In this document: positions 29,053-54,892 of the stretch, piece by piece
Numbering within the stretch: the first letter of the stretch is position 1
Layout of the letters: each line of letters begins with the position of its first letter
NCBI RefSeq assembly: GCF_023055435.1
Contig: NW_025963813.1
Coordinates: 3,782,001-3,846,000 of the forward strand
Length of the DNA: 64,000 nucleotides
Direction of reading: 5' to 3'
DNA from: Haliotis rufescens
Taxonomy: Eukaryota
The notes under the pieces: generated by a model
Database searches by the model: none
What the model was told of the DNA's origin: nothing
The model's input: only the letters and a program-made list of their open reading frames with translations
Translations under genes and position numbers: made by a program

Positions 29053-29364
29053 CCGTATTCGACGTAATAAGCGCCCACGGCGAAATTTGCTAATATATTG
29101 ACTAGTGAACAATCCCAATTAGCACCCCTTCAGACTGATCAATGTACACAAGACTTATTTATTCGCGTATAATACGCACTCATGTATTATATGCACCCTT
29201 AATTATAGGCAATTAAATTCTGAAAAAATATATCTGTCGTATGTAAACATTTCAGGTCGTCAGCATGAACCACAAAATTTATCTTTCAACTCTGTTGTTT
29301 TTCACCAAAATAATATTCTAATAAGAGCCCCCGATTTCTAATTTTGAGAGTTCCGTCGGTACGG
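29053..29364 (-). mobile_element. TA-flanked MITE, inverted copy of 10526-10868
   Basis: TA-ccgtattcgacgtaataagcgccc at the left end; interior is the reverse complement of the 10.5-kb copy; right TIR partly deleted. Confidence 0.82.
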
Positions 29365-32780: not shown

Positions 32781-33988
32781 TACAAATGAACAAGGAAATC
32801 AGGACACTATGAATCGAAATACTCCCAATGGAGAAAGAAAGAGAACAAGTTCTATTTTGACTTTTTCCTCAACATGTATTTGTAAACTAACACCAGATTA
32901 TATATCACCTTAGCATTCGAGAGTTTCATTCTTTATTATTTACATCTTCCTGAATAACCATCAAAACATGCTATGAAATTTATCTGAGAAGCGTAGGGAT
33001 ACAAGAGGGCTACAGTCTGAAAGCAGAATATGAGACCGCTCCATGTCACACATCTGAGTTGCTTTGTTCAAAGCAGTTAAATGAAACCTAGACAATTAAT
33101 TCAACTATTGTAGTCTGCATGTTTAAAATATTTCTTTGAGCTCTTTCCACACGATCGAAATCGCGTACCAATATATGCTGACCGCAGTAACCTGTAAGGG
33201 GCATACTATCTCCATCTGACTCAGCAATACAGTAAACTAAATGTAATGTCAACGGTATTACATTTAAGAAGGAGTCCTAAATGACATCCTATTATGGTGT
33301 GCGGATAGTGTATCAATGCAGTTAGCAAACTGATAGTCAAATGGACAGGTGTGAAGTTAACTAGGTATGGTATGTTGCTACTTTAATACTATTGTAATTT
33401 TCCACAAGGTCAGAACTGCTAAAATGCAGAAACGCCTAAACGTGGACAAGAACAAGGTATTTGTGAAGCATTTGGGGACGATTATGTAGGGTTGAAACTT
33501 CTTTAAATCTTGAGACAAAACGTATTAGAGGGGAAGAGTTCTGTTTTTGACGCATACACAGTGAAGACAAAATGTTGAAATACATTAAAAGTAAAATGTT
33601 CTCATAGGATAGATATAAAGGTATTTTGCAATTATCAACGGAATCTGTTGAGCTAATTCTAGGGACGATGTGTATGATTTCACTAGTGGAAACTGATATA
33701 TACCATGTATTTATAAATTGGCTTTCCGACAACACAGTCAAGGCAAGGAGTGAATTATTTGCAATGTTTAATTGTAAATTACCTTTTGTATTGGAGGATT
33801 CATATGCCAAGAATGGGACTAAAACTAGCTCTCGCTGCAGCTGTTTTTGTAATCAATAGGATACGGTTCTCCGTATGTGCGTTTGTATTGTACATCATGT
33901 ACCACATAGGTGATATGTGTTTCTACTTTTAATTTGCAGGTAAGCAGTAAGTAAATACAAAGTCGAAAAGACATATTCATTTCATGGT

Positions 33989-33994
33989 TTTATT
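33989..33994 (-). terminator. Polyadenylation signal AATAAA of copy 1 (present in every unit)
   Basis: tttatt on the plus strand, ~113 nt downstream of the stop codon. Confidence 0.75.
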
Positions 33995-34106
33995 TGAAGT
34001 CGTTTCTCAAAGTTGACATTGTATAGTGTGGTGTAGTCAACGATTCTATGGCAACGATGGCATCAAATGTCCAGCATTTGATAGAAATGTGAAGAGCCTG
34101 TTGAGT

Positions 34107-34708
34107 TTAACCATGGTGGCCACCGCCTCCATGGCCACCTCCTCCATGGCCGCCGCCACCGTGACCACCTCCGTGGCCGCCACCTCCATGTCCGCCGCCA
34201 CCATGACCCCCACCACCTTTGCCGCCTCCTCCGTGGCCGCCACCCCCTTTGCCACCGCCTCCTTTTCCGCCACCTCCTCCGTGGCCGCCACCTCCTTTGC
34301 CACCGCCTCCTTTGCCACCACCTCCTTTGCCACCGCCTCCTTTGCCACCGCCTCCTTTGCCACCACCTCCTTTTCCACCGCCTCCATGTCCTCCTCCGCC
34401 TCCTTTGCCGCCACCCCCTCCGTGGCCACCATAGGCAGAGCCAAAGAAGGCTGTGAACACTAGAAAGGAGAACAGTGCATCTGTAGTTAAATGTCTTTAA
34501 AGAACAACGCAAGAATATAGTTTTCAACCTCATAATGTTGCCAATTACCTTTTGTACGCTCTTTAAGTCACGTTGCTGTAGAAAATAGGCAATGAATTAA
34601 AAGATAAGTGAATTTATCAGTCCACATTTCAATAGAACTCACACAGCTCACGTTTGAAAGTTTGAACTTACCCAAGGCCACAACGAGTGCAATTTTATAG
34701 AGCTGCAT
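34107..34708 (-). CDS. Secreted Gly/Lys/His-rich protein, copy 1 (129 aa; exons 34672-34708 and 34107-34459)
   Basis: ATG CAG CTC TAT AAA ATT GCA CTC GTT GTG GCC TTG G|GTAAGT...TTCTCCTTTCTAG|TG TTC ACA GCC. The phase-1 splice restores the signal peptide MQLYKIALVVALVFTAFFGSAYG in frame with the Gly repeats. Confidence 0.92.
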
Positions 34709-34747
34709 CTTCACAGTTACGTCTATCCACAGTAGAATAAACGGTGT

Positions 34748-34783
34748 GAATGACCATGTAGCAAATACACAAGGCCTTTTATA
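34748..34783 (-). promoter_or_regulatory. Core promoter of copy 1: TATAAAAG (34776-34783) and Inr TCATTC (34748-34753); present in every unit
   Basis: The TATA box lies ~32 nt upstream of the Inr adenine (34751), which is 43 nt upstream of the ATG. Confidence 0.8.
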
Positions 34784-36528
34784 CAAATGGATAAGGAAAT
34801 CAGGACACTATGAATCGAAATACTCCCAATGGAGAAAGAAAGAGAACAAGTTCTATTTTGACTTTTTCCTCAACATGTATTTGTAAACTAACACCAGATT
34901 ATATAATATCACCTTGGCATTGGAGAGTTTCATTCTTTATTATTTACGTCTTCCTGAATAACCATCAAAACATGCTGTGCATTTGTTACGTAAGGCGGCG
35001 CCCCTTGGATGTTTCTCTGTTGGATTAAATGCAAGGTGCACTGACTCATCCAATGAATTCAAAGCAAATATGACATACAAAAACAATGAATAGACAGATC
35101 TCTATAAAATGCAAGAACAATGAGTAGCTGTAAATATCATGTTACTATAGGTCTCGTTATGCAGTTTCTTGGTCCCATCAATGACTATTGTAAAATACCT
35201 ATATCTGAAATGAGCAAACAGTAGATACTGCATGCTTTTCATTTGATGAAAATACACCGATATTTAGGGAATTACAACACGTACTACGCCTCCATCGCCT
35301 TATATGCTGCTCGTAGCACCACAACACATACTGTAAGTAATATCTACTCAATAATGGACACAGAAGTGACCGTGCAGCCACTTATACACGAGATATTTAC
35401 ACCTATCTGAGAAGCGTAGGGATACAAGAGGGCTACAGTCTGAAAGCAGAATATGAGACCGCTCCATGTCACACATCTGAGTTGCTTTTTTCAAAGCAGT
35501 TAAAAGAACCTAGATAATTAATTCAACTATTGTAGTCTGCATGTTTAAAATATTTCTTTGAGCTCTTTCCACACGATCGAAATCGCGTACCAATATATGC
35601 TGACCGCAGTAACCTGTAAGGGGCATACTATCTCCATCTGACTCAGCAATACAGTAAACTAAATGTAATGTCAACGGTATTACATTTAAGAAGAAGTGCT
35701 AAATGACATCCTATTATGGTGTGCGGATAGTGTATCAATGCAGTTAGCAAACTGATAGTCAAATGGACAGGTGTGAAGTTAACTAGGTATGGTATGTTGC
35801 TACTTTAATACTATTGTAATTCTCCACAAGGTCAGAACTGCTAAAATGCAGAAACGCCTAAACGTGGACAAGAACAAGGTAGATGTGAAGCATTTGGGGA
35901 CGATTATGTAGGGTTGAAAATTCTTTAAATCTTGAGACAAAACGTATTAGAGGGGAAGAGTTCTGTTTTTGACGCATACACAGTGAAGACAAAATGTTAA
36001 AATACATTAAAAGTAAAATGTACTCATAGGATAGATATAAAGGTATTTTGCAATTATCAACGGAATCTGTTGAGCTAATTCTAGGGACGATGTGTATGAT
36101 TTCACTAGTGGAAACTGATATATACCATGTATTTATAAATTGGCTTTCCGACAACACAGTCAACGCAAGGAGTGAATTATTTGCAATGTTTAATTGTAAA
36201 TTACCTTTTGTATTGGAGGATTCATATGCCAAGAATGGGACTAAAACTAGCTCTCGCTGCAGCTGTTTTTGTAATCAATAGGATACGGTTCTCCGTATGT
36301 GCGTTTGTATTGTACATCATGTACCACATAGGTGATATGTGTTTCTTCTTTTAATTTGCAGGTAAGCAGTAAGTAAATACAAAGTCGAAAAGACATATTC
36401 ATTTCATGGTTTTATTTGAAGTCGTTTCTCAAAGTTGACATTGTATAGTGTGGTGTAGTCAACGAGGCTATGGCAACGATGGCATCAAATGTCCAGCATT
36501 TGATAGAAATGTGAAGAGCCTGTTGAGT

Positions 36529-37193
36529 TTAACCATGGTGGCCACCGCCTCCATGGCCACCTCCTCCATGGCCGCCGCCACCGTGACCACCTCCGTGGCC
36601 ACCACCACCGTGGCCGCCGCCGCCGCCACCATGACCACCTCCGTGGCCGCCACCTCCATGTCCGCCGCCACCATGACCCCCACCACCTTTGCCGCCTCCT
36701 CCGTGGCCGCCACCCCCTTTGCCACCGCCTCCTTTTCCGCCACCTCCTCCGTGGCCGCCACCTCCTTTGCCACCGCCTCCTTTGCCACCACCTCCTTTGC
36801 CACCGCCTCCTTTGCCACCGCCTCCTTTGCCACCGCCTCCTTTGCCACCACCTCCTTTTCCACCGCCTCCATGTCCTCCTCCGCCTCCTTTGCCGCCACC
36901 CCCTCCGTGGCCACCATAGGCAGAGCCAAAGAAGGCTGTGAACACTAGAAAGGAGAACAGTGCATCTGTAGTTAAATGTCTTTAAAGAACAACGCAAGAA
37001 TATAGTTTTCAACCTCATAATGTTGCCAATTACCTTTTGTACGCTCTTTAAGTCACGTTGCTGTAGAAAATAGGCAATGAATTAAAAGATAAGTGAATTT
37101 ATCAGTCCACATTTCAATAGAACTCACACAGCTCACGTTTGAAAGTTTGAACTTACCCAAGGCCACAACGAGTGCAATTTTATAGAGCTGCAT
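36529..37193 (-). CDS. Secreted Gly/Lys/His-rich protein, copy 2 (150 aa; exons 37157-37193 and 36529-36944)
   Basis: Same exon/intron structure; intact frame. Confidence 0.92.
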
Positions 37194-38315
37194 CTTCACA
37201 GTTACGTCTATCCACAGTAGAATAAACGGTGTGAATGACCATGTAGCAAATACACAAGGCCTTTTATACAAATGGATAAGGAAATCAGGACACTATGAAT
37301 CGAAATACTCCCAATGGAGAAAGAAAGAGAACAAGTTCTATTTTGACTTTTTCCTCAACATGTATTTGTAAACTAACACCAGATTATATAATATCACCTT
37401 GGCATTGGAGAGTTTCATTCTTTATTATTTACGTCTTCCTGAATAACCATCAAAACATGCTGTGCATTTGTTACGTAAGGCGGCGCCCCTTGGATGTTTC
37501 TCTGTTGGATTAAATGCAAGGTGCACTGACTCATCCAATGAATTCAAAGCAAATATGACATACAAAAACAATGAATAGACAGATCTCTATAAAATGCAAG
37601 AACAATGATTAGCTGTAAATATCATGTTACAATAGGTCTCGTTATGCAGTTTCTTGGTCCCACCAATGACTATTGTAAGATACCTATATCTTATAATGAA
37701 ATGAGCAAACAGTAGATACTGCATGCTTTTCATTTGAGGGGAAGAGTTCTGTTTTTGACGCATACACAGTGAAGACAAAATGTTGAAATACATTAAAAGC
37801 AAAATGTTCTCATAGGATAGATATAAAGGTATTTTGCAATTATCAACGGAATCTGTTGAGCTAATTCTAGGGACGATGTGTATGATTTCACTAGTGGAAA
37901 CTGATATAAACCATGTATTTATAAATTGGCTTTCCGACAACACAGTCAACGCAAGGAGTGAATTATTTGCAATGTTTAAATGTAAATTACCTTTTGTATT
38001 AGGAGGATTCATATGCCAAGAATGGGACTAAAACTAGCTCTCGCTGCAGCTGTTTTTGTAATCAATAGGATACGGTTCTCCGTATGTGCGTTTGTATTAT
38101 ACATCATGTACCACATAGGTGATATGTGTTTCTTCTTTTAATTTGCAGGTAAGCAGTAAGTAAATACAAAGTCGAAAAGACATATTCATTTCATGGTTTT
38201 ATTTGAAGTCGTTTCTCAAAGTTGACATTGTATAGTGTGGTGTAGTCAACGATTCTATGGCAACGATGGCATCAAATGTCCAGCATTTGATAGAAATGTG
38301 AAGAGCCTGTTGAGT

Positions 38316-38917
38316 TTAACCATGGTGGCCACCGCCTCCATGGCCACCTCCTCCATGGCCGCCGCCACCGTGACCACCTCCGTGGCCACCACCACCGTGG
38401 CCGCCGCCGCCGCCACCATGACCACCTCCGTGGCCGCCACCTCCATGTCCGCCGCCACCATGACCCCCACCACCTTTGCCGCCTCCTCCGTGGCCGCCAC
38501 CCCCTTTGCCACCGCCTCCTTTTCCACCACCTCCTTTGCCACCGCCTCCTTTGCCACCGCCTCCTTTGCCACCACCTCCTTTTCCACCGCCTCCATGTCC
38601 TCCTCCGCCTCCTTTGCCGCCACCCCCTCCGTGGCCACCATAGGCAGAGCCAAAGAAGGCTGTGAACACTAGAAAGGAGAACAGTGCATCTGTAGTTAAA
38701 TGTCTTTAAAGAACAACGCAAGAATATAGTTTTCAACCTCATAATGTTGCCAATTACCTTTTGTACGCTCTTTAAGTCACGTTGCTGTAGAAAATAGGCA
38801 ATGAATTAAAAGATAAGTGAATTTATCAGTCCACATTTCAATAGAACTCACACAGTTCACGTTTGAAAGTTTGAACTTACCCAAGGCCTCAACGAGTGCA
38901 ATTTTATAGAGCTGCAT
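38316..38917 (-). CDS. Secreted Gly/Lys/His-rich protein, copy 3 (129 aa; exons 38881-38917 and 38316-38668); Val10Glu in the signal peptide
   Basis: Same structure; ccaaggcctc at 38881 gives KIALVEALV. Confidence 0.88.
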
Positions 38918-40033
38918 CTTCACAGTTACGTCTATCCACAGTAGAATAAACGGTGTGAATGACCATGTAGCAAATACACAAGGCCTTTTATACAAATGGA
39001 TAAGGAAATCAGGACACTATGAATCGAAATACTCCCAATGGAGAAAGAAAGAGAACAAGTTCTATTTTGACTTTTTCCTCAACATGTATTTGTAAACTAA
39101 CACCAGATTATATAATATCACCTTGGCATTGGAGAGTTTCATTCTTTATTATTTACGTCTTCCTGAATAACCATCAAAACATGCTGTGCATTTGTTACGT
39201 AAGGCGGCGCCCCTTGGATGTTTCTCTGTTGGATTAAATGCAAGGTGCACTGACTCATCCAATGAATTCAAAGCAAATATGACATACAAAAACAATGAAT
39301 AGACAGATCTCTATAAAATGCAAGAACAATGATTAGCTGTAAATATCATGTTACAATAGGTCTCGTTATGCAGTTTCTTGGTCCCACCAATGACTATTGT
39401 AAAATACCTATATCTTAAATGAGCAAACAGTAGATACTGCATGCTTTTCATTTGAGGGGAAGAGTTCTGTTTTTGACGCATACACAGTGAAGACAAAATG
39501 TTGAAATACATTAAAAGCAAAATGTTCTCATAGGATAGATATAAAGGTATTTTGCAATTATCAACGGAATCTGTTGAGCTAATTCTAGGGACGATGTGTA
39601 TGATTTCACTAGTGGAAACTGATATAAACCATGTATTTATAAATTGGCTTTCCGACAACACAGTCAAGGCAAGGAGTGAATTATTTGCAATGTTTAATTG
39701 TAAATTACCTTTTGTATTAGGAGGATTCATATGCCAAGAATGGGACTAAAACTAGCTCTCGCTGCAGCTGTTTTTGTAATCAATAGGATACGGTTCTCCG
39801 TATGTGCGTTTGTATTATACATCATGTACCACATAGGTGATATGTGTTTCTTCTTTTAATTTGCAGGTAAGCAGTAAGTAAATACAAAGTCGAAAAGACA
39901 TATTCATTTCATGGTTTTATTTGAAGTCGTTTCTCAAAGTTGACATTGTATAGTGTGGTGTAGTCAACGAGGCTATGGCAACGATGGCATCAAATGTCCA
40001 GCATTTGATAGAAATGTGAAGAGCCTGTTGAGT

Positions 40034-40650
40034 TTAACCATGGTGGCCACCGCCTCCATGGCCACCTCCTCCATGGCCGCCGCCACCGTGACCACCTCCG
40101 TGGCCACCACCACCGTGGCCGCCGCCGCCGCCACCATGACCACCTCCGTGGCCGCCACCTCCATGTCCGCCGCCACCATGACCCCCACCACCTTTGCCGC
40201 CTCCTCCGTGGCCGCCACCCCCTTTGCCACCGCCTCCTTTTCGACCACCTCCTTTGCCACCGCCTCCTTTACCACCGCCTCCTTTGCCACCGCCTCCTTT
40301 GCCACCACCTCCTTTTCCACCGCCTCCATGTCCTCCTCCGCCTCCTTTGCCGCCACCCCCTCCGTGGCCACCATAGGCAGAGCCAAAGAAGGCTGTGAAC
40401 ACTAGAAAGGAGAACAGTGCATCTGTAGTTAAATGTCTTTAAAGAACAACGCAAGAATATAGTTTTCAACCTCATAATGTTGCCAATTACCTTTTGTACG
40501 CTTTTTAAGTCACGTTGCTGTAGAAAATAGGCAATGAATTAAAAGATAAGTGAATTTATCAGTCCACATTTCAATAGAACTCACACAGCTCACGTTTGAA
40601 AGTTTGAACTTACCCAAGGCCACAACGAGTGCAATTTTATAGAGCTGCAT
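40034..40650 (-). CDS. Secreted Gly/Lys/His-rich protein, copy 4 (134 aa; exons 40614-40650 and 40034-40401)
   Basis: Same structure; one Gly>Arg change (GGGRK). Confidence 0.92.
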
Positions 40651-42469
40651 CTTCACAGTTACGTCTATCCACAGTAGAATAAACGGTGTGAATGACCATG
40701 TAGCAAATACACAAGGCCTTTTATACAAATGGATAAGGAAATCAGGACACTGTGAATCGAAATACTCCCAATGGAGAAAGAAAGAGAACAAGTTCTATTT
40801 TGACTTTTTCCTCAACATGTATTTGTAAACTAACACCAGATTATATAATATCACCTTGGCATTGGAGAGTTTCATTCTTTATTATTTACGTCTTCCTGAA
40901 TAACTATCAAAACATGCTGTGCATTTGTTACGTAAGGCGGCGCCCCTTGGATGTTTCTCTGTTGGATTAAATGCAAGGTGCACTGACTCATCCAATGAAT
41001 TCAAAGCAAATATGACATACAAAAACAATGAATAGACAGATCTCTATAAAATGCAAGAACAATGATTAGCTGTAAATATCATGTTACAATAGGTCTCGTT
41101 ATGCAGTTTCTTGGTCCCATCAATGACTATTGTAAAATACCTATATCTTAAATGAGCAAACAGTAGATATTGCATGCTTTTCATTTGATGAAAATACACC
41201 GATATTTAGGGAATTACAACACGTACTACGCCTCCATCGCCTTATATGCTGCTCGTAGCACCACAACACATACTGTAAGTAATATCTACTCAATAATGGA
41301 CACAGAAGTGACCGTGCAGCCACTTATACACGAGATATTTACACCTATCTGAGAAGCGTAGGGATAAAAGAGGGCTACAGTCTGAAAGCAGAATATGAGA
41401 CCGCTCCATGTCACACATCTGAGTTGCTTTTTTCAAAGCAGTTAAAAGAACCTAGATAATTAATTCAACTATTGTAGTCTGCATGTTTAAAATATTTCTT
41501 TGAGCTCTTTCCACACGATCGAAATCGCGTACCAATATATGCTGACCGCAGTAACCTGTAAGGGGCATACTATCTCCATCTGACTCAGCAATACAGTAAA
41601 CTAAATGTAATGTCAACGGTATTACATTTGAGAAAGAGTGCTAAATGACATCCTATTATGGTGTGCGGATAGTGTATCAATGCAGTTAGCAAACTGATAG
41701 TCAAATGGACAGGTGTGAAGGTAACTAGGTATGGTATGTTGCTACTTTAATACTATTGTAATTCTCCACAAGGTCAGAACTGCTAAAATGCAGAAACGCC
41801 TAAACGTGGACAAGAACAAGGTAGATGTGAAGCATTTGGGGACGATTATGTAGGGTTGAAAATTCTTTAAATCTTGAGACAAAACGTATTAGAGGGGAAG
41901 AGTTCTGTTTTTGACGCATACACAGTGAAGACAAAATGTTGAAATACATTAAAAGCAAAATGTTCTCATAGGATAGATATAGGTATTTTGCAATTATCAA
42001 CGGAATCTGTTGAGCTAATTCTAGGGACGATGTGTATGATTTCACTAGTGGAAACTGATATATACCATGTATTTATAAATTGGCTTTCCGACAACACAGT
42101 CAAGGCAAGGAGTGAATTATTTGCAATGTTTAATTGTAAATTACCTTTTGTATTAGGAGGATTCATATGCCAAGAATGGGACTAAAACTAGCTCTCGCTG
42201 CAGCTGTTTTTGTAATCAATAGGATACGGTTCTCCGTATGTGCGTTTGTATTATACATCATGTACCACATAGGTGATATGTGTTTCTTCTTTTAATTTGC
42301 AGGTAAGCAGTAAGTAAATACAAAGTCGAAAAGACATATTCATTTCATGGTTTTATTTGAAGTCGTTTCTCAAAGTTGACATTGTATAGTGTGGTGTAGT
42401 CAACGATTCTATGGCAACGATGGCATCAAATGTCCAGCATTTGATAGAAATGTGAAGAGCCTGTTGAGT

Positions 42470-43086
42470 TTAACTATGGTGGCCACCGCCTCCATGGCCA
42501 CCTCCTCCATGGCCGCCGCCACCGTGACCACCTCCGTGGCCACCACCACCGTGGCCGCCGCCGCCGCCACCATGACCACCTCCGTGGCCGCCACCTCCAT
42601 GTCCGCCGCCACCATGACCCCCACCACCTTTGCCGCCTCCTCCGTGGCCGCCACCTCCTTTGCCACCGCCTCCTTTGCCACCACCTCCTTTGCCACCGCC
42701 TCCTTTGCCACCGCCTCCTTTGCCACCGCCTCCTTTGCCACCACCTCCTTTTCCACCGCCTCCATGTCCTCCTCCGCCTCCTTTGCCGCCACCCCCTCCG
42801 TGGCCACCATAGGCAGAGCCAAAGAAGGCTGTGAACACTAGAAAGGAGAACAGTGCATCTGTAGTTAAATGTCTTTAAAGAACAACGCAAGAATATAGTT
42901 TTCAACCTCATAATGTTGCCAATTACCTTTTGTACGCTCTTTAAGTCACGTTGCTGTAGAAAATAGGCAATGAATTAAAAGATAAGTGAATTTATCAGTC
43001 CACATTTCAATAGAACTCACACAGTTCACGTTTGAAAGTTTGAACTTACCCAAGGCCACAACGAGTGCAATTTTATAGAGCTGCAT
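42470..43086 (-). CDS. Secreted Gly/Lys/His-rich protein, copy 5 (134 aa; exons 43050-43086 and 42470-42837); ends HHS
   Basis: Same structure; intact frame. Confidence 0.92.
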
Positions 43087-44910
43087 CTTCACAGTTACGT
43101 CTATCCACAGTAGAATAAACGGTGTGAATGACCATGTAGCAAATACACAAGGCCTTTTATACAAATGGATAAGGAAATCAGGACACTATGAATCGAAATA
43201 CTCCCAATGGAGAAAGAAAGAGAACAAGTTCTATTTTGACTTTTTCCTCAACATGTATTTGTAAACTAACACCAGATTATATAATATCACCTTGGCATTG
43301 GAGAGTTTCATTCTTTATTATTTACGTCTTCCTGAATAACCATCAAAACATGCTGTGCATTTGTTACGTAAGGCGGCGCCCCTTGGATGTTTCTCTGTTG
43401 GATTAAATGCAAGGTGCACTGACTCATCCAATGAATTCAAAGCAAATATGACATACAAAAACAATGAATAGACAGATCTCTATAAAATGCAAGAACAATG
43501 ATTAGCTGTAAATATCATGTTACAATAGGTCTCGTTATGCAGTTTCTTAGTCCCATCAATGACTATTGTAAAATACCTATATCTGAAATGAGCAAACAGT
43601 AGATACTGCATGCTTTTCATTTGATGAAAATACACCGATATTTAGGGAATTACAACACGTACTACGCCTCCGTCGCCTTATATGCTGCTCGTAGCACCAC
43701 AACACATACTGTAAGTAATATCTACTCAATAATGGACACAGAAGTGACCGTGCAACCACTTATACAGGAAATATATTTACACCTATCTGAGAAGCGTAGG
43801 GATAAAAGAGGGCTACAGTCTGAAAGCAGAATATGAGACCGCTCCATGTCACACATCTGAGTTGCTTTTTTCAAAGCAGTTAAAAGAACCTAGATAATTA
43901 ATTCAACTATTGTAGTCTGCATGTTTAAAATATTTCTTTGAGCTCTTTCCACACGATCGAAATCGCGTACCAATATATGCTGACCGCAGTAACCTGTAAG
44001 GGGCATACTATCTCCATCTGACTCAGCAATACAGTAAACTAAATGTAATGTCAACGGTATTACATTTGAGAAAGAGTGCTAAATGACATCCTATTATGGT
44101 GTGCGGATAGTGTATCAATGCAGTTAGCAAACTGATAGTAAAATGGACAGGTGTGAAGTTAACTAGGTATGGTATGTTGCTACTTTAATACTATTGTAAT
44201 TCTCCACAAGGTCAGAACTGCTAAAATGCAGAAACGCCTAAACGTGGACAAGAACAAGGTAGATGTGAAGCATTTGGGGACGATTATGTAGGGTTGAAAT
44301 TTTTTTTAAATATTGAGACAAAACGTATTAGAGGGGAAGAGTTCTGTTTTTGACGCATACACAGTGAAGACAAAATGTTGAAATACATTAAAAGCAAAAT
44401 GTTCTCATAGGATAGATATAAAGGTATTTTGCAATTATCAACGGAATCTGTTGAGCTAATTCTAGGGACGATGTGTATGATTTCACTAGTGGAAACTGAT
44501 ATATACCATGTATTTATAAATTGGCTTTCCGACAACACAGTCAAGGCAAGGAGTGAATTATTTGCAATGTTTAATTGTAAATTACCTTTTGTATTAGGAG
44601 GATTCATATGCCAAGAATGGGACTAAAACTAGCTCTCGCTGCAGCTGTTTTTGTAATCAATAGGATACGGTTCTCCGTATGTGCGTTTGTATTATACATC
44701 ATGTACCACATAGGTGATATGTGTTTCTTCTTTTAATTTGCAGGTAAGCAGTAAGTAAATACAAAGTCGAAAAGACATATTCATTTCATGGTTTTATTTG
44801 AAGTCGTTTCTCAAAGTTGACATTGTATAGTGTGGTGTAGTCAACGATTCTATGGCAACGATGGCATCAAATGTCCAGCATTTGATAGAAATGTGAAGAG
44901 CCTGTTGAGT

Positions 44911-45605
44911 TTAACCATGGTGGCCACCGCCTCCATGGCCACCTCCTCCATGGCCGCCGCCACCGTGACCACCTCCGTGGCCACCACCACCGTGGCCGCC
45001 GCCGCCGCCACCATGACCACCTCCGTGGCCGCCACCTCCATGTCCGCCGCCACCATGACCCCCACCACCTTTGCCGCCTCCTCCGTGGCCGCCACCCCCT
45101 TTGCCACCGCCTCCTTTTCCGCCACCTCCTCCGTGGCCGCCACCTCCTTTGCCACCGCCTCCTTTGCCACCACCTCCTTTGCCACCGCCTCCTTTGCCAC
45201 CACCTCCTTTGCCACCGCCTCCTTTGCCACCGCCTCCTTTGCCACCGCCTCCTTTGCCACCACCTCCTTTTCCACCGCCTCCATGTCCTCCTCCGCCTCC
45301 TTTGCCGCCACCCCCTCCGTGGCCACCATAGGCAGAGCCAAAGAAGGCTGTGAACACTAGAAAGGAGAACAGTGCATCTGTAGTTAAATGTCTTTAAAGA
45401 ACAACGCAAGAATATAGTTTTCAACCTCATAATGTTGCCAATTACCTTTTGTACGCTCTTTAAGTCACGTTGCTGTAGAAAATAGGCAATGAATTAAAAG
45501 ATAAGTGAATTTATCAGTCCACATTTCAATAGAACTCACACAGTTCACGTTTGAAAGTTTGAACTTACCCAAGGCCACAACGAGTGCAATTTTATAGAGC
45601 TGCAT
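44911..45605 (-). CDS. Secreted Gly/Lys/His-rich protein, copy 6 (160 aa; exons 45569-45605 and 44911-45356)
   Basis: Same structure; longest GGGGK run. Confidence 0.92.
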
Positions 45606-47428
45606 CTTCACAGTTACGTCTATCCACAGTAGAATAAACGGTGTGAATGACCATGTAGCAAATACACAAGGCCTTTTATACAAATGGATAAGGAAATCAG
45701 GACACTATGAATCGAAATACTCCCAATGGAGAAAGAAAGAGAACAAGTTCTATTTTGACTTTTTCCTCAACATGTATTTGTAAACTAACACCAGATTATA
45801 TAATATCATCTTGGCATTGGAGAGTTTCATTCTTTATTATTTACGTCTTCCTGAATAACCATCAAAACATGCTGTGCATTTGTTACGTAAGGCGGCGCCC
45901 CTTGGATGTTTCTCTGTTGGATTAAATGCAAGGTGCACTGACTCATCCAATGAATTCAAAGCAAATATGACATACAAAAACAATGAATAGACGGGTCTCT
46001 ATAAAATGCAAGAACAATGATTAGCTGTAAATATCATGTTACAATAGGTTTCGTTATGCAGTTTCTTGGTCCCATCAATGACTATTGTAAAATACCTATA
46101 TCTTAAATGAGCAAACAGTAGATACTGCATGCTTTTCATTTGATGAAAATACACCGATATTTAGGGAATTACAACACGTACTACGCCTCCGTCGCCTTAT
46201 ATGCTGCTCGTAGCACCACAACACATACTGTAAGTGATATCTACTCAATAATGGACACAGAAGTGACCGTGCAACCACTTATACAGGAAATATATTTACA
46301 CCTATCTGAGAAGCGTAGGGATAAAAGAGGGCTACAGTCTGAAAGCAGAATATGAGACCGCTCCATGTCACACATCTGAGTTGCTTTTTTCAAAGCAGTT
46401 AAAAGAACCTAGATAATTAATTCAACTATTGTAGTCTGCATGTTTAAAATATTTCTTTGAGCTCTTTCCACACGATCGAAATCGCGTACCAATATATGCT
46501 GACCGCAGTAACCTGTAAGGGGCATACTATCTCCATCTGACTCAGCAATACAGTAAACTAAATGTAATGTCAACGGTATTACATTTGAGAAAGAGTGCTA
46601 AATGACATCCTATTATTGTGTGCGGATAGTGTATCAATGCAGTTAGCAAACTGATAGTCAAATGGACAGGTGTGAAGTTAACTAGGTATGGTATGTAGCT
46701 ACTTTAATACTATTGTACTTCTCCACAAGGTCAGAACTGCTAAAATGCAGAAACGCCTAAACGTGGACAAGAACAAGGTATTTGTGAAGCATTTGGGGAC
46801 GATTATGTAGGGTTGAAACTTCTTTAAATCTTGAGACAAAACGTATTAGAGGGGAAGAGTTCTGTTTTTGACGCATACACAGTGAAGACAAAATGTTGAA
46901 ATACATTAAAAGTAAAATGTACTCATAGGATAGATATATAGGTATTTTGCAATTATCAACGGAATCTGTTGAGCTAATTCTAGGGACGATGTGTATGATT
47001 TCACTAGTGGAAACTGATATATACCATGTATTTATAAATTGGCTTTCCGACAACACAGTCAAGGCAAGGAGTGAATTATTTGCAATGTTTAATTGTTAAT
47101 TACCTTTTGTATTAGGAGGATTCATATGCCAAGAATGGGACTAACACTAGCTCTCGCTGCAGCTGTTTTTGTAATCAATAGGATACGGTTCTCCGTATGT
47201 GCGTTTGTATTATACATCATGTACCACATAGGTGATATGTGTTTCTTCTTTTAATTTGCAGGTAAGCAGTAAGTAAATACAAAGTCGAAAAGACAAATTC
47301 ATTTCATGGTTTTATTTGAAGTCGTTTCTCAAAGTTGACATTGTATAGTGTGGTGTAGTCAACGATTCTATGGCAACGATGGCATCAAATGTCCAGCATT
47401 TGATAGAAATGTGAAGAGCCTGTTGAGT

Positions 47429-48093
47429 TTAACTATGGTGGCCACCGCCTCCATGGCCACCTCCTCCATGGCCGCCGCCACCGTGACCACCTCCGTGGCC
47501 ACCACCACCGTGGCCGCCGCCGCCGCCACCATGACCACCTCCGTGGCCGCCAACTCCATGTCCGCCGCCACCATGACCCCCACCACCTTTGCCGCCTCCT
47601 CCGTGGCCGCCACCCCCTTTGCCACCGCCTCCTTTTCCGCCACCTCCTCCGTGGCCGCCACCTCCTTTGCCACCGCCTCCTTTGCCACCACCTCCTTTGC
47701 CACCGCCTCCTTTGCCACCGCCTCCTTTGCCACCGCCTCCTTTGCCACCACCTCCTTTTCCACCGCCTCCATGTCCTCCTCCGCCTCCTTTGCCGCCACC
47801 CCCTCCGTGGCCACCATAGGCAGAGCCAAAGAAGGCTGTGAACACTAGAAAGGAGAACAGTGCATCTGTAGTTAAATGTCTTTAAAGAACAACGCAAGAA
47901 TATAGTTTTCAACCTCATAATGTTGCCAATTACCTTTTGTACGCTCTTTAAGTCACGTTGCTGTAGAAAATAGGCAATGAATTAAAAGATAAGTGAATTT
48001 ATCAGTCCACATTTCAATAGAACTCACACAGTTCACGTTTGAAAGTTTGAACTTACCCAAGGCCACAACGAGTGCAATTTTATAGAGCTGCAT
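47429..48093 (-). CDS. Secreted Gly/Lys/His-rich protein, copy 7 (150 aa; exons 48057-48093 and 47429-47844); Gly>Val, ends HHS
   Basis: Same structure; intact frame. Confidence 0.92.
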
Positions 48094-49916
48094 CTTCACA
48101 GTTACGTCTATCCACAGTAGAATAAACGGTGTGAATGACCATGTAGCAAATACACAAGGCCTTTTATACAAATGGATAAGGAAATCAGGACACTATGAAT
48201 CGAAATACTCCCAATGGAGAAAGAAAGAGAACAAGTTCTATTTTGACTTTTTCCTCAACATGTATTTGTAAACTAACACCAGATTATATAATATCACCTT
48301 GGCATTGGAGAGTTTCATTCTTTATTATTTACGTCTTCCTGAATAACCATCAAAACATGCTGTGCATTTGTTACGTAAGGCGGCGCCCCTTGGATGTTTC
48401 TCTGTTGGATTAAATGCAAGGTGCACTGACTCATCCAATGAATTCAAAGCAAATATGACATACAAAAACAATGAATAGACGGGTCTCTATAAAATGCAAG
48501 AACAATGATTAGCTGTAAATATCATGTTACAATAGGTCTCGTTATGCAGTTTCTTGGTCCCATCAATGACTATTGTAAAATACCTATATCTGAAATGAGC
48601 AAACAGTAGATACTGCATGCTTTTCATTTGATGAAAATACACCGATATTTAGGGAATTACAACACGTACTACGCCTCCGTCGCCTTATATGCTGCTCGTA
48701 GCACCACAACACATACTGTAAGTAATATCTACTCAATAATGGACACAGAAGTGACCGTGCAACCACTTATACAGGAAATATATTTACACCTATCTGAGAA
48801 GCGTAGGGATAAAAGAGGGCTACAGTCTGAAAGCAGAATATGAGACCGCTCCATGTCACACATCTGAGTTGCTTTTTTCAAAGCAGTTAAAAGAACCTAG
48901 ATAATTAATTCAACTATTGTAGTCTGCATGTTTAAAATATTTCTTTGAGCTCTTTCCACACGATCGAAATCGCGTACCAATATATGCTGACCGCAGTAAC
49001 CTGTAAGGGGCATACTATCTCCATCTGACTCAGCAATACAGTAAACTAAATGTAATGTCAACGGTATTACATTTGAGAAAGAGTGCTAAATGACATCCTA
49101 TTATTGTGTGCGGATAGTGTATCAATGCAGTTAGCAAACTGATAGTCAAATGGACAGGTGTGAAGTTAACTAGGTATGGTATGTAGCTACTTTAATACTA
49201 TTGTACTTCTCCACAAGGTCAGAACTGCTAAAATGCAGAAACGCCTAAACGTGGACAAGAACAAGGTATTTGTGAAGCATTTGGGGACGATTATGTAGGG
49301 TTGAAACTTCTTTAAATCTTGAGACAAAACGTATTAGAGGGGAAGAGTTCTGTTTTTGACGCATACACAGTGAAGACAAAATGTTGAAATACATTAAAAG
49401 TAAAATGTACTCATAGGATAGATATATAGGTATTTTGCAATTATCAACGGAATCTGTTGAGCTAATTCTAGGGACGATGTGTATGATTTCACTAGTGGAA
49501 ACTGATATATACCATGTATTTATAAATTGGCTTTCCGACAACACAGTCAAGGCAAGGAGTGAATTATTTGCAATGTTTAATTGTTAATTACCTTTTGTAT
49601 TAGGAGGATTCATATGCCAAGAATGGGACTAACACTAGCTCTCGCTGCAGCTGTTTTTGTAATCAATAGGATACGGTTCTCCGTATGTGCGTTTGTATTA
49701 TACATCATGTACCACATAGGTGATATGTGTTTCTTCTTTTAATTTGCAGGTAAGCAGTAAGTAAATACAAAGTCGAAAAGACAAATTCATTTCATGGTTT
49801 TATTTGAAGTCGTTTCTCAAAGTTGACATTGTATAGTGTGGTGTAGTCAACGATTCTATGGCAACGATGGCATCAAATGTCCAGCATTTGATAGAAATGT
49901 GAAGAGCCTGTTGAGT

Positions 49917-50581
49917 TTAACCATGGTGGCCACCGCCTCCATGGCCACCTCCTCCATGGCCGCCGCCACCGTGACCACCTCCGTGGCCACCACCACCGTG
50001 GCCGCCGCCGCCGCCACCATGACCACCTCCGTGGCCGCCACCTCCATGTCCGCCGCCACCATGACCCCCACCACCTTTGCCGCCTCCTCCGTGGCCGCCA
50101 CCCCCTTTGCCACCGCCTCCTTTTCCGCCACCTCCTCCGTGGCCGCCACCTCCTTTGCCACCGCCTCCTTTGCCACCACCTCCTTTGCCACCGCCTCCTT
50201 TGCCACCGCCTCCTTTGCCACCGCCTCCTTTGCCACCACCTCCTTTTCCACCGCCTCCATGTCCTCCTCCGCCTCCTTTGCCGCCACCCCCTCCGTGGCC
50301 ACCATAGGCAGAGCCAAAGAAGGCTGTGAACACTAGAAAGGAGAACAGTGCATCTGTAGTTAAATGTCTTTAAAGAACAACGCAAGAATATAGTTTTCAA
50401 CCTCATAATGTTGCCAATTACCTTTTGTACGCTCTTTAAGTCACGTTGCTGTAGAAAATAGGCAATGAATTAAAAGATAAGTGAATTTATCAGTCCACAT
50501 TTCAATAGAACTCACACAGTTCACGTTTGAAAGTTTGAACTTACCCAAGGCCACAACGAGTGCAATTTTATAGAGCTGCAT
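49917..50581 (-). CDS. Secreted Gly/Lys/His-rich protein, copy 8 (150 aa; exons 50545-50581 and 49917-50332)
   Basis: Same structure; intact frame. Confidence 0.92.
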
Positions 50582-52404
50582 CTTCACAGTTACGTCTATC
50601 CACAGTAGAATAAACGGTGTGAATGACCACGTAGCAAATACACAAGGCCTTTTATACAAATGGATAAGGAAATCAGGACACTATGAATCGAAATACTCCC
50701 AATGGAGAAAGAAAGAGAACAAGTTCTATTTTGACTTTTTCCTCAACATGTATTTGTAAACTAACACCAGATTATATAATATCACCTTGGCATTGGAGAG
50801 TTTCATTCTTTATTATTTACGTCTTCCTGAATAACCATCAAAACATGCTGTGCATTTGTTACGTAAGGCGGCGCCCCTTGGATGTTTCTCTGTTGGATTA
50901 AATGCAAGGTGCACTGACTCATCCAATGAATTCAAAGCAAATATGACATACAAAAACAATGAATAGACGGGTCTCTATAAAATGCAAGAACAATGATTAG
51001 CTGTAAATATCATGTTACAATAGGTCTCGTTATGCAGTTTCTTGGTCCCATCAATGACTATTGTAAAATACCTATATCTGAAATGAGCAAACAGTAGATA
51101 CTGCATGCTTTTCATTTGATGAAAATACACCGATATTTAGGGAATTACAACACGTACTATGCCTCCGTCGCCTTATATGCTGCTCGTAGCACCACAACAC
51201 ATACTGTAAGTGATATCTACTCAATAATGGACACAGAAGTGACCGTGCAACCACTTATACACGAAATATATTTACACCTATCTGAGAAGCGTAGGGATAA
51301 AAGAGGGCTACAGTCTGAAAGCAGAATATGAGACCGCTCCATGTCACACATCTGAGTTGCTTTTTTCAAAGCAGTTAAAAGAACCTAGATAATTAATTCA
51401 ACTATTGTAGTCTGCATGTTTAAAATATTTCTTTGAGCTCTTTCCACACGATCGAAATCGCGTACCAATATATGCTGACCGCAGTAACCTGTAAGGGGCA
51501 TACTATCTCCATCTGACTCAGCAATACAGTAAACTAAATGTAATGTCAACGGTATTACATTTGAGAAAGAGTGCTAAATGACATCCTATTATTGTGTGCG
51601 GATAGTGTATCAATGCAGTTAGCAAACTGATAGTCAAATGGACAGGTGTGAAGTTAACTAGGTATGGTATGTAGCTACTTTAATACTATTGTAATTCTCC
51701 ACAAGGTCAGAACTGCTAAAATGCAGAAACGCCTAAACGTGGACAAGAACAAGGTATTTGTGAAGCATTTGGGGACGATTATGTAGGGTTGAAACTTCTT
51801 TAAATCTTGAGACAAAACGTATTAGAGGGGAAGAGTTCTGTTTTTGACGCATACACAGTGAAGACAAAATGTTGAAATACATTAAAAGTAAAATGTACTC
51901 ATAGGATAGATATATAGGTATTTTGCAATTATCAACGGAATCTGTTGAGCTAATTCTAGGGACGATGTGTATGATTTCACTAGTGGAAACTGATATATAC
52001 CATGTATTTATAAATTGGCTTTCCGACAACACAGTCAAGGCAAGGAGTGAATTATTTGCAATGTTTAATTGTTAATTACCTTTTGTATTAGGAGGATTCA
52101 TATGCCAACAATGGGACTAACACTAGCTCTCGCTGCAGCTGTTTTTGTAATCAATAGGATACGGTTCTCCGTATGTGCGTTTGTATTATACATCATGTAC
52201 CACATAGGTGATATGTGTTTCTTCTTTTAATTTGCAGGTAAGCAGTAAGTAAATACAAAGTCGAAAAGACAAATTCATTTCATGGTTTTATTTGAAGTCG
52301 TTTCTCAAAGTTGACATTGTATAGTGTGGTGTAGTCAACGATTCTATGGCAACGATGGCATCAAATGTCCAGCATTTGATAGAAATGTGAAGAGCCTGTT
52401 GAGT

Positions 52405-53069
52405 TTAACCATGGTGGCCACCGCCTCCATGGCCACCTCCTCCATGGCCGCCGCCACCGTGACCACCTCCGTGGCCACCACCACCGTGGCCGCCGCCGCC
52501 GCCACCATGACCACCTCCGTGGCCGCCACCTCCATGTCCGCCGCCACCATGACCCCCACCACCTTTGCCGCCTCCTCCGTGGCCGCCACCCCCTTTGCCA
52601 CCGCCTCCTTTTCCGCCACCTCCTCCGTGGCCGCCACCTCCTTTGCCACCGCCTCCTTTGCCACCACCTCCTTTGCCACCGCCTCCTTTGCCACCGCCTC
52701 CTTTGCCACCGCCTCCTTTGCCACCACCTCCTTTTCCACCGCCTCCATGTCCTCCTCCGCCTCCTTTGCCGCCACCCCCTCCGTGGCCACCATAGGCAGA
52801 GCCAAAGAAGGCTGTGAACACTAGAAAGGAGAACAGTGCATCTGTAGTTAAATGTCTTTAAAGAACAACGCAAGAATATAGTTTTCAACCTCATAATGTT
52901 GCCAATTACCTTTTGTACGCTCTTTAAGTCACGTTGCTGTAGAAAATAGGCAATGAATTAAAAGATAAGTGAATTTATCAGTCCACATTTCAATAGAACT
53001 CACACAGTTCACGTTTGAAAGTTTGAACTTACCCAAGGCCACAACGAGTGCAATTTTATAGAGCTGCAT
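52405..53069 (-). CDS. Secreted Gly/Lys/His-rich protein, copy 9 (150 aa; exons 53033-53069 and 52405-52820)
   Basis: Same structure; intact frame. Confidence 0.92.
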
Positions 53070-54892
53070 CTTCACAGTTACGTCTATCCACAGTAGAATA
53101 AACGGTGTGAATGACCACGTAGCAAATACACAAGGCCTTTTATACAAATGGATAAGGAAATCAGGACACTATGAATCGAAATACTCCCAATGGAGAAAGA
53201 AAGAGAACAAGTTCTATTTTGACTTTTTCCTCAACATGTATTTGTAAACTAACACCAGATTATATAATATCACCTTGGCATTGGAGAGTTTCATTCTTTA
53301 TTATTTACGTCTTCCTGAATAACCATCAAAACATGCTGTGCATTTGTTACGTAAGGCGGCGCCCCTTGGATGTTTCTCTGTTGGATTAAATGCAAGGTGC
53401 ACTGACTCATCCAATGAATTCAAAGCAAATATGACATACAAAAACAATGAATAGACGGGTCTCTATAAAATGCAAGGACAATGATTAGCTGTAAATATCA
53501 TGTTACAATAGGTCTCGTTATGCAGTTTCTTGGTCCCATCAATGACTATTGTAAAATACCTATATCTTAAATGAGCAAACAGTAGATACTGCATGCTTTT
53601 CATTTGATGAAAATACACCGATATTTAGGGAATTACAACACGTACTACGCCTCCGTCGCCTTATATGCTGCTCGTAGCACCACAACACATACTGTAAGTG
53701 ATATCTACTCAATAATGGACACAGAAGTGACCGTGCAACCACTTATACAGGAAATATATTTACACCTATCTGAGAAGCGTAGGGATAAAAGAGGGCTACA
53801 GTCTGAAAGCAGAATATGAGACCGCTCCATGTCACACATCTGAGTTGCTTTTTTCAAAGCAGTTAAAAGAACCTAGATAATTAATTCAACTATTGTAGTC
53901 TGCATGTTTAAAATATTTCTTTGAGCTCTTTCCACACGATCGAAATCGCGTACCAATATATGCTGACCGCAGTAACCTGTAAGGGGCATACTATCTCCAT
54001 CTGACTCAGCAATACAGTAAACTAAATGTAATGTCAACGGTATTACATTTGAGAAAGAGTGCTAAATGACATCCTATTATTGTGTGCGGATAGTGTATCA
54101 ATGCAGTTAGCAAACTGATAGTCAAATGGACAGGTGTGAAGTTAACTAGGTATGGTATGTAGCTACTTTAATACTATTGTAATTCTCCACAAGGTCAGAA
54201 CTGCTAAAATGCAGAAACGCCTAAACGTGGACAAGAACAAGGTATTTGTGAAGCATTTGGGGACGATTATGTAGGGTTGAAACTTCTTTAAATCTTGAGA
54301 CAAAACGTATTAGAGGGGAAGAGTTCTGTTTTTGACGCATACACAGTGAAGACAAAATGTTGAAATACATTAAAAGTAAAATGTACTCATAGGATAGATA
54401 TATAGGTATTTTGCAATTATCAACGGAATCTGTTGAGCTAATTCTAGGGACGATGTGTATGATTTCACTAGTGGAAACTGATATATACCATGTATTTATA
54501 AATTGGCTTTCCGACAACACAGTCAAGGCAAGGAGTGAATTATTTGCAATGTTTAATTGTTAATTACCTTTTGTATTAGGAGGATTCATATGCCAACAAT
54601 GGGACTAACACTAGCTCTCGCTGCAGCTGTTTTTGTAATCAATAGGATACGGTTCTCCGTATGTGCGTTTGTATTATACATCATGTACCACATAGGTGAT
54701 ATGTGTTTCTTCTTTTAATTTGCAGGTAAGCAGTAAGTAAATACAAAGTCGAAACGACAAATTCATTTCATGGTTTTATTTGAAGTCGTTTCTCAAAGTT
54801 GACATTGTATAGTGTGGTGTAGTCAACGATTCTATGGCAACGATGGCATCAAATGTCCAGCATTTGATAGAAATGTGAAGAGCCTGTTGAGT

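What the first reader, a model, noticed from the sequence alone, without database searches (positions are those of the whole stretch)
36529..36944. Block-copolymer design: Lys-pentad N-half and His-pentad C-half
Seen: (GGGGK)n runs come first, then a mixed zone, then Lys-free GGGH/GGGGH repeats ending in HH. This order holds in all 13 copies. Inference: a permanently cationic domain (binding membranes or polyanions, or Lys cross-linking) joined to a pH-switchable Zn/Cu-binding domain. It may form polyglycine-II bundles or coacervates.
Basis: partly seen in the sequence, partly recalled or inferred. Interest (0 to 1): 0.7.

Follow-up and report, generated by a model that had tools for sequence, protein, structure and literature searches.

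The report
Amplified abalone glycine-histidine-lysine peptide family
An animal genome, likely an abalone's, carries about 165 tandem copies of a small gene family for predicted secreted chains made almost only of glycine, histidine and lysine, which likely act as metal-binding antimicrobial peptides; the lysine-then-histidine order seen here is one of four recipes, not the family's shared design.

Summary
The flagged stretch is exon 2 of a real, spliced, minus-strand gene for a predicted secreted 127-residue chain (80% Gly, 11 Lys, 15 His). The Lys-run, mixed-zone, His-tail order holds in 13 of 13 window copies. Those copies are 99.5-100% identical, so they count as one observation. The chain also starts with His and ends in HHG or HHS, not HH.

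The genome, likely abalone, holds four homogenised arrays (about 26, 35, 29 and 76 genes). Only this array has the block order. Array B is Lys-rich with no Lys-free block, C has 3 Lys, and D has none.

All four keep a signal peptide, a Gly-His start, 3-4-Gly spacing, a C-terminal HHG (likely an amidation signal) and a 3'UTR hairpin with a CUGGA loop that matches the Smaug/ZCCHC14 element.

Best reading (0.5): bulk-secreted, disordered, metal-assisted antimicrobial peptides with graded charge. Main rival (0.3): a structural, cross-linked matrix protein. A polyglycine-II bundle and self-coacervation are not supported.

Tissue and function are untested, and no protein-database search was obtained. 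Ten paper searches did not show this family. Three look-ups in the scan's earlier notes did not show it on other DNA.

The parts
37279..37287 (-). 9-nt promoter word invariant in all four paralogous arrays, just upstream of the TATA box; binding factor unknown
   Evidence: alignment of one representative per array; position read
37263..37268 (-). TATA box, 75 nt upstream of the start codon
   Evidence: TATA-like word aligned in all four arrays
37157..37193 (-). exon 1, coding part (37 nt): first 12 codons of the predicted signal peptide
   Evidence: covered by a spliced contig of run X3 that reaches 37215
36945..37156 (-). 212-nt GT-AG intron, phase 1
   Evidence: joint 36944>37157 in run X3
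36913..36944 (-). exon 2 start: rest of the predicted 23-residue signal peptide, ending in an A-x-G cleavage site
   Evidence: sequence; cleavage inferred from the recalled -3/-1 rule, no predictor run; same A/V-x-G site before Gly-His in all four arrays
36871..36912 (-). predicted mature N-terminus, Gly-His (His at position 2), and a short His/Lys/His leader
36766..36870 (-). run of 7 GGGGK pentads (mature residues 15-49)
36688..36765 (-). mixed His/Lys zone (mature residues 50-75)
36529..36687 (-). Lys-free tail with 11 His (residues 76-127), ending HHG, then TAA; terminal Gly is a likely amidation signal
   Evidence: amidation inferred
36484..36504 (-). 3'UTR hairpin, 8-bp stem with CUGGA pentaloop, matching the Smaug/ZCCHC14 recognition element; conserved in all four arrays
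   Evidence: consensus from PMC4053848 and PMC9282228
36411..36416 (-). AATAAA polyadenylation signal, 112 nt after the stop
   Evidence: contigs of runs X6 and X10 end at 36411 and 36408
32781..64000 (-). tandem array A: 13 intact gene copies in the window (unit 1.7-2.5 kb, mostly 2,473-2,488 nt) with a partial unit at the left edge; it continues beyond the window to 26 copies plus one 5'-truncated copy (G000:C35 about 3.816-3.879 Mb)

Best explanation
This is one of about 165 genes, in four tandem arrays, for small predicted secreted Gly/His/Lys chains that likely act as unstructured, metal-assisted antimicrobial or barrier peptides made in bulk. Shown: gene structure, splicing in one run, copy numbers, composition and conserved ends. 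Inferred steps: (1) The signal peptide is cut before Gly-His and the terminal Gly is converted to an amide, giving a chain of about 9.2 kDa. (2) In an acidic granule the His residues are protonated and the chain stays soluble (about +24). (3) At seawater pH the His residues lose their charge and can bind Zn or Cu, while the Lys residues keep about +10 and hold the chain on anionic microbial surfaces or mucus. (4) Arrays B (Lys-rich), A (intermediate, block order), C (3 Lys) and D (no Lys) supply a graded mixture from about +11.5 to about 0 at pH 8.1, so the family splits the two chemistries across genes, and A happens to carry both. (5) The block order in A most likely arose by local slippage of 15-nt units. 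(6) The 3'UTR hairpin likely recruits a Smaug-type SAM-domain protein that times or stabilises the mRNA.
For: Size, Gly content and precursor layout match Gly-rich antimicrobial peptides: acanthoscurrins 130-132 aa, 72% Gly; ctenidins 109-120 aa, 71% Gly; holotricin 3, 84 aa, 64% Gly; shepherins 66-68% Gly (PMC5031766 Table 3). Here the chains are 71-137 aa and 75-79% Gly. Acanthoscurrins, ctenidins and serrulin are C-terminally amidated (PMC6784228). HHG ends 90 of 93 gene models (2 end HHS, 1 is frameshifted) although introns between A and the other arrays have fallen to 57-62% identity (shuffled baseline 52-59%). Armadillidins vary the number of GGGX motifs and the X residue in the same way and showed no definable secondary structure (PMC7017220). 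[quoted passage not shown] Copy counts: 26, 35, 29, about 76 (105 candidates minus 29); 165 exact matches of the 17-nt hairpin core, control 0. Spliced contigs of A and of a C/D-type gene occur in the same run, X3. AlphaFold2 gave no fold.
Against: No activity, tissue or induction data were obtained; the runs are coded and their RNA status is a guess. The spider peptides have other residues that these chains lack (recalled; the serrulin sequence has Phe, Tyr, Ile and Arg), and a chain with no hydrophobic residue cannot insert into membranes in the usual way. Array D has almost no net charge at pH 8.1, and seawater salt weakens electrostatic binding (established knowledge). Copies within arrays are homogenised (introns 98-100% identical), which fits dosage more than the diversification reported for mussel myticalins (PMC5577615). 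Within array A, point changes show no purifying signal (2 synonymous, 6 non-synonymous, pN/pS 1.17); B, C and D give 0.29, 0.13 and 0.23, but unit slippage inflates synonymous counts. The hairpin has no compensatory changes, and in array B a rival pairing wins (pair probability 0.02).
Confidence: 0.5

Rival explanations
1. Structural or matrix proteins. The chains are secreted in bulk into a hard or tough extracellular part (jaw, radula, periostracum, egg coat or adhesive) and hardened by His-metal bonds and by quinone cross-links to His and Lys. Different Lys/His recipes would then build gradients.
For: Gly/His-rich proteins build metal-hardened jaws: Glycera MTP is 49% Gly and 40% His; Nereis NVJP-1 is 36% Gly and 27% His and forms Zn-triggered fibrils at seawater pH (PMC9999432, passages). 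About 165 homogenised copies point to demand for quantity. Abalone already uses Gly-rich secreted proteins in the shell field and mantle (Has-tsfgr1, PMC2034539).
Against: The chains are 6-9 kDa against 30-40 kDa for MTP and NVJP, and they lack the Tyr, Asp, Glu and Ala of those proteins. MTP has no more than two Gly in a row, whereas here four is the rule. A conserved terminal Gly fits a processed peptide better. No GGH string occurs in the main text of the H. laevigata shell proteome paper; its supplements were not read.
Confidence: 0.3
2. One reading: array A has a selected two-domain design, in which a Lys block anchors the chain and a His block switches with pH and metal, and the order itself matters for function.
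For: The order is non-random in A and survives length changes of -63 to +30 nt among 25 copies. Contigs from runs labelled as three other organisms cover the His tail, and in two cases the mixed zone, with 0-3 differences or short of it (X1, X3, X6). Array B shows a weaker trend in the same direction (Lys share 0.74, 1.00, 0.68, 0.35 by quarter; p=0.05).
Against: Only 1 of 4 arrays has a Lys-free block after a Lys block; C and D (about 105 genes) are nearly or wholly Lys-free. Slippage makes runs without selection. The other labelled organisms are almost identical in sequence here, so they add little time depth.
Confidence: 0.12
3. Metal scavenger: secreted His-rich chains that bind Cu, Zn or Ni to detoxify, store or withhold them, with no direct killing or structural role.
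For: His is the only non-Gly residue present in all four arrays; the largest array has His alone (18 His in 22 of 26 models). His at position 2 and a His-His pair are recalled copper-binding motifs.
Against: It does not explain the Lys-rich array B (12 Lys, 6 His) or the Lys run of A. No metal-response data.
Confidence: 0.08

Closest known systems
Acanthoscurrins and ctenidins (spider haemocyte Gly-rich antimicrobial peptides; PMC5031766 Table 3, PMC6784228 passages)
   Same: Size (109-132 aa), over 70% Gly, cationic, C-terminal amidation (shown for them; inferred here from the terminal Gly).
   Different: Here only Gly, His and Lys; no aromatic or aliphatic residues; His-rich; about 165 tandem genes. 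Homology not tested; convergence is the default assumption.
Shepherin I (Capsella; PMC10698721 abstract, introduction, conclusion) and holotricin 3 (beetle; PMC5031766 Table 3)
   Same: Gly/His-dominated secreted peptides; Zn binding turns shepherin I into antifungal fibrils, a working model for the His tail and for arrays C and D.
   Different: Shepherin I is 28 aa with GGH triplets and one Tyr; here 71-137 aa with 3-4 Gly spacers and a variable Lys content.
Armadillidins (terrestrial isopods; PMC7017220, PMC5031766 passages)
   Same: Signal peptide plus GGGX repeats whose number and X residue vary; no definable secondary structure; armadillidin H also begins Gly-His.
   Different: About 53 aa, rich in Arg and Phe, usually one sequence per transcriptome; not massively amplified.
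Glycera MTP, Nereis NVJP-1, squid beak HBPs (PMC9999432 passages)
   Same: Secreted Gly/His-rich repeats from marine invertebrates with pH- and metal-dependent behaviour.
   Different: MTP and NVJP are 30-40 kDa with 27-40% His and acidic residues; NVJP and HBPs also carry Tyr/Phe. Here 6-9 kDa, about 7-23% His, no such residues.
Smaug recognition element / ZCCHC14-TENT4 pentaloop (PMC4053848 section 9; PMC9282228 passages)
   Same: CNGGN loop on a stem; all three best-scoring features for Smaug (CUGG, G before the loop, five-base loop); the loop is the same CUGGA as in the ZCCHC14-bound viral stem-loop Vb.
   Different: Binding untested; stem invariant with no covariation; folding weak in array B; Smaug represses or degrades whereas ZCCHC14-TENT4 stabilises, and the sequence cannot tell which applies.

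Membership tests
Glycine-rich antimicrobial peptides (acanthoscurrin/ctenidin/holotricin-3 type; a compositional class) | Small secreted precursor with signal peptide | tested here: met
   20-23 residue hydrophobic leader with A/V-x-G end in four arrays; judged by eye and by the recalled -3/-1 rule, no predictor run
Glycine-rich antimicrobial peptides (acanthoscurrin/ctenidin/holotricin-3 type; a compositional class) | Gly above about 60%, repetitive, cationic or His-rich | tested here: met
   75-79% Gly; net charge +11.9, +12.2, +4.7 and +1.1 at pH 7.4 for A, B, C, D with generic pKa values
Glycine-rich antimicrobial peptides (acanthoscurrin/ctenidin/holotricin-3 type; a compositional class) | C-terminal amidation (acanthoscurrins, ctenidins) | tested here: inconclusive
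   terminal Gly in 90 of 93 models; the amide itself needs mass spectrometry
Glycine-rich antimicrobial peptides (acanthoscurrin/ctenidin/holotricin-3 type; a compositional class) | Measured antimicrobial activity and expression in immune or barrier tissue | not testable with these tools
   runs are coded, tissue unknown
Glycine-rich antimicrobial peptides (acanthoscurrin/ctenidin/holotricin-3 type; a compositional class) | Sequence homology to a named member | not tested
   no protein-database, Pfam or PDB search of this protein was obtained
Gly/His-rich sclerotised jaw and beak proteins (MTP, NVJP-1, HBPs) | High Gly and His in short repeats | tested here: met
   His share is lower than in MTP and NVJP
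Gly/His-rich sclerotised jaw and beak proteins (MTP, NVJP-1, HBPs) | Acidic, aromatic or hydrophobic residues that drive assembly; 30-40 kDa for MTP and NVJP | tested here: not met
   only Gly, His and Lys apart from rare single changes; 6.4-9.2 kDa against passages
Polyglycine-II helical bundle proteins | Three-residue period that leaves a Gly-only face (recalled), and a compact fold | tested here: not met
   side chains spread evenly over positions mod 3 in all four arrays; AlphaFold2 pLDDT 44, pTM 0.10 (single sequence, weak on its own)
Smaug recognition element (SRE) | CNGGN0-4 loop closed by a stem | tested here: met
   CUGGA loop on a 6-8 bp stem in 89 of 91 UTRs examined (A 25/25, B 32/32, C 9/10, D 23/24); at most 5 in 20,000 shuffles
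Smaug recognition element (SRE) | The hairpin forms in the mRNA context | tested here: inconclusive
   pair probabilities A 0.81-0.99, D 0.74-0.85, C 0.45-0.58, B 0.02; no compensatory changes
Smaug recognition element (SRE) | Bound by a Smaug/SAMD4 or ZCCHC14 protein | not testable with these tools
   binding needs an experiment; the PHAT-domain search of the own genome found nothing and rang in no control

The most novel reading that the evidence does not exclude
Abalone has built a roughly 165-gene peptide system from a three-letter alphabet. Four separately amplified arrays set the charge and metal capacity of one secreted blend by their Lys-to-His ratio and their copy number. All share Gly-His and His-His-amide metal-binding ends and are switched together through one Smaug/ZCCHC14-type hairpin. 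In this reading gene dosage acts as the mixing ratio of a pH- and metal-set antimicrobial or structural material, and the block-type array A would be the linker between the Lys-rich and His-only components.
Probability: 0.2. Interest if true: 0.8.

Novelty: new variant of a known kind. Interest (0 to 1): 0.55.

Why it matters
Gly-rich and Gly/His-rich secreted peptides are a known class. A family of about 165 near-identical genes in four arrays with graded Lys/His recipes did not appear in ten paper searches. It could be a major overlooked defence or material component of a farmed mollusc. It is easy to miss (inference): low-complexity filters mask it, short reads fragment it, and trypsin would give five-residue pieces from the Lys parts and no cuts in array D. 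The four natural recipes are a ready-made series for testing how Lys/His ratio and order affect activity. The shared 3'UTR hairpin offers a testable case of Smaug/ZCCHC14-type control of a secreted gene family.

Tried and rejected
Other reading frames over the same DNA (Ala/Thr/Ser-rich, Glu/Val/Ala-rich, Arg/Trp-rich): rejected, since only the Gly frame joins a start codon and leader through the splice seen.

An ATG followed by a GT further upstream (about 37420): rejected by phase and by the observed joint.

No protein-database, Pfam or PDB search of this protein was obtained, so existing database names and relatives outside this genome remain open.

AlphaFold2: no usable model, so no fold search was run. 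No complex prediction was run.

Rfam at E up to 5 over 36300-37400: 5 matches, all below gathering score, none on the hairpin.

PHAT (Smaug) domain search of the own genome: no match and no control rang; uninformative.

Run search: no holder on record as RNA. Runs X5 and X23 gave only one short piece each on the D-type locus; not used as evidence. Run X1 holds intron-containing contigs there, so it may contain DNA or pre-mRNA.

One search stopped with an error after arrays A and B. One search chose wrong splice acceptors for A, B and C; its numbers were discarded and redone.

The Gly-His start was part of the filter, so that count is circular. The unfiltered ORF lists show the same start.

A chimeric origin of A (B-type front, C-type tail) was considered. 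A's 3'UTR is closer to B (0.70) than to C (0.65) and shared unit types are few; not supported.

Spot stretches near the arrays (L016, L020-L025, L035, L036, L039) held no Gly-rich frame.

Earlier scan notes: none on this family.

Supplements of PMC6003135 and PMC4944945 were not read and could list members.

Full report
Observation. The flagged interval 36529-36944 is exon 2 of a minus-strand gene. Exon 1 (37193-37157, 37 coding nt) joins it across a 212-nt GT-AG intron to give 150 codons: a predicted 23-residue signal peptide and a 127-residue chain of 101 Gly, 15 His and 11 Lys. A TATA box lies 75 nt upstream and AATAAA 112 nt downstream. A contig of run X3 makes exactly this joint. Contigs of all 4 runs laid cover parts of exon 2, and none covers the intron. 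The runs are only guessed to be RNA; the joint itself is the evidence of a spliced transcript.

The order of Lys and His. All 13 window copies are intact and show a Lys run, a mixed zone and a Lys-free tail. Two His come before the run, and the chain ends HHG (11 of 13) or HHS (2 of 13). The order is non-random in the commonest protein (p=0.0009 for early Lys). The copies are 99.46-100% identical over 556 nt of mostly non-coding DNA, so they are one observation. Local duplication of 15-nt units gives runs without selection; all length differences among 25 A models are multiples of three.

The family. Searches of the own genome (G000) found four arrays. A: C35 3.816-3.879 Mb, 26 copies plus a 5'-truncated one. 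B: C35 5.747-5.828 Mb, 35 plus a truncated one. C: C35 5.461-5.548 Mb, 29. D: from C47:370 kb to the contig end and from C246:6.042 Mb onward, about 76 (105 candidates minus 29; only 40 were scored). By orientation, C47 and C246 are likely two ends of one array; that C246 runs to its end is inferred from copies at 6.04-6.06 and 6.10-6.11 Mb. A 17-nt 3'UTR core occurs 165 times in the genome, control 0. The 100 listed places all lie in these arrays; 65 were not listed. The egg-lysin family has six matches above cut-off in this genome. With earlier notes this points to an abalone; that lysin is typical of abalones and their kin is recalled.

What varies and what is kept. One search built 93 complete models: A 25 of 26 (the copy at 38917 failed a filter and is covered), B 32 of 35 exon-1 candidates, C 10 of 11 fetched and D 26 of 29 fetched. 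C and D were sampled only in part. The Lys share of Lys+His by quarter is 0.66, 0.83, 0.28, 0 in A; 0.74, 1.00, 0.68, 0.35 in B; and 0, 0.29, 0.14, 0 in C. In D, 25 of 26 models have no Lys, and the exception is frameshifted. Only A has the block order. Kept in all four are the two-exon layout, an A/V-x-G site followed by Gly-His (part of the filter, also visible in the unfiltered lists), spacers of mostly 3-4 Gly, and HHG at the end (90 of 93). Introns between A and the others are 57-62% identical against a shuffled baseline of 52-59%; C and D are 85% identical. Within arrays introns are 98-100% identical. Selection has therefore kept the alphabet and the ends over a long time, while the Lys content moved freely.

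A regulatory element. The 3'UTRs share 18 invariant columns in a row among four representatives; 0 of 200,000 column permutations reached this. The block forms a hairpin with a CUGGA loop in 89 of 91 UTRs, and at most 5 of 20,000 shuffles give such a hairpin. It has the three features that best predicted Smaug binding in fly embryos: CUGG, a G before the loop and a five-base loop (PMC4053848, section 9 read). ZCCHC14 binds a viral stem-loop with the same loop and recruits TENT4 (PMC9282228, passages). Against this reading, there are no compensatory changes, and in B the hairpin is outcompeted in the prediction (probability 0.02, against 0.81-0.99 in A). The stem arms are also two E-boxes five bases apart, a recalled bHLH arrangement, so a DNA element is a rival; the invariant loop favours the RNA reading.

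Structure and chemistry. AlphaFold2 on the mature A chain gave pLDDT 44 and pTM 0.10. Side chains are spread evenly over the three positions of a polyglycine-II turn. The Gly4-X pentad resembles the flexible (Gly4Ser)n linker (recalled). A disordered chain is the likely state without metal. With generic pKa values the charge falls from pH 5.5 to 8.1 as follows: A +24 to +10.6, B +17 to +11.5, C +25.5 to +2.8, D +15.5 to -0.3. A His at position 2 and a His-His pair are recalled metal-binding motifs. A terminal Gly is the substrate of the amidating enzyme PAM (PMC5577615, passage).

Mechanism. I favour bulk-secreted, metal-assisted antimicrobial or barrier peptides (0.5). Size, Gly content, charge and the amidation signal match acanthoscurrins, ctenidins and holotricin 3 (PMC5031766, passages and Table 3; PMC6784228, passages). 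Armadillidins vary in the same way (PMC7017220, passages), and Zn activates shepherin I (PMC10698721, abstract, introduction and conclusion). Spliced contigs of A and of a C/D-type gene occur in one run, which is consistent with a blend but does not show one cell or tissue. The rival is a structural role like Glycera MTP or Nereis NVJP-1 (0.3; PMC9999432, passages); it is favoured by the homogenised copy number and disfavoured by the small size and missing residues. The strict block-design model gets 0.12 and pure metal scavenging 0.08. No step from secretion onward is shown.

Known or new. Ten paper searches (listings only, except as named) showed no description of this family. Passages of PMC4944945, PMC2034539, PMC6003135 and PMC11767717 name other abalone proteins. 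PMC11206429 lists short land-snail mucus peptides with similar five-residue strings but rich in Leu. PMC13176007 excludes abalone. No supplements were read, subscription journals are missing, and no protein-database search was obtained, so automatic annotations may exist. Verdict: a new variant of a known compositional class. The block-copolymer idea is only partly supported; the interest lies in the amplified four-recipe family and its shared hairpin. Interest 0.55.

Noticed in passing
window 13250-16791, 17133-19097, 19319-20425, 23259-23702, 3229-3620: Minisatellites of 74 nt (48 copies), 31 nt (63), 44 nt (25), 44 nt (10) and 39 nt (10); the 74-nt unit and the 44-nt unit at 23259 share a stretch of about 17 nt. 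They explain the long open frames and the C skew in this part; likely non-coding.
   Followed up: no
window 38881-38917 (exon 1 of the third copy): One copy has a Val-to-Glu change in the hydrophobic core of the signal peptide, which would likely impair secretion.
   Followed up: partly
window 42470-42472 region and 47429-47431 region: Two copies end in HHS instead of HHG and would lose the likely amidation signal.
   Followed up: partly
L004:9121-9552, L015:3540-3755, L026:9656-9805: Arrays A, B and D each have a 5'-truncated, probably dead copy at their upstream edge.
   Followed up: partly
L037:4920-5453: One array D copy is frameshifted inside the repeat and reads through into the 3'UTR.
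   Followed up: partly
window 37279-37287 and the matching places in B, C, D: A 9-nt promoter word and a 9-nt word in the 5' region are invariant across the four arrays; on the other strand the first contains a GGAA core like ETS-family sites (recalled, untested).
   Followed up: partly
G000:C47 (475 kb) and C246 ends: Array D reaches the end of C47 and probably the end of C246 in an orientation that would join the two contigs, so its true copy number may exceed 76.
   Followed up: partly
window 10512-10781 and 29123-29341: Two similar frames in opposite orientation suggest a dispersed repeat with two copies in the window.
   Followed up: no
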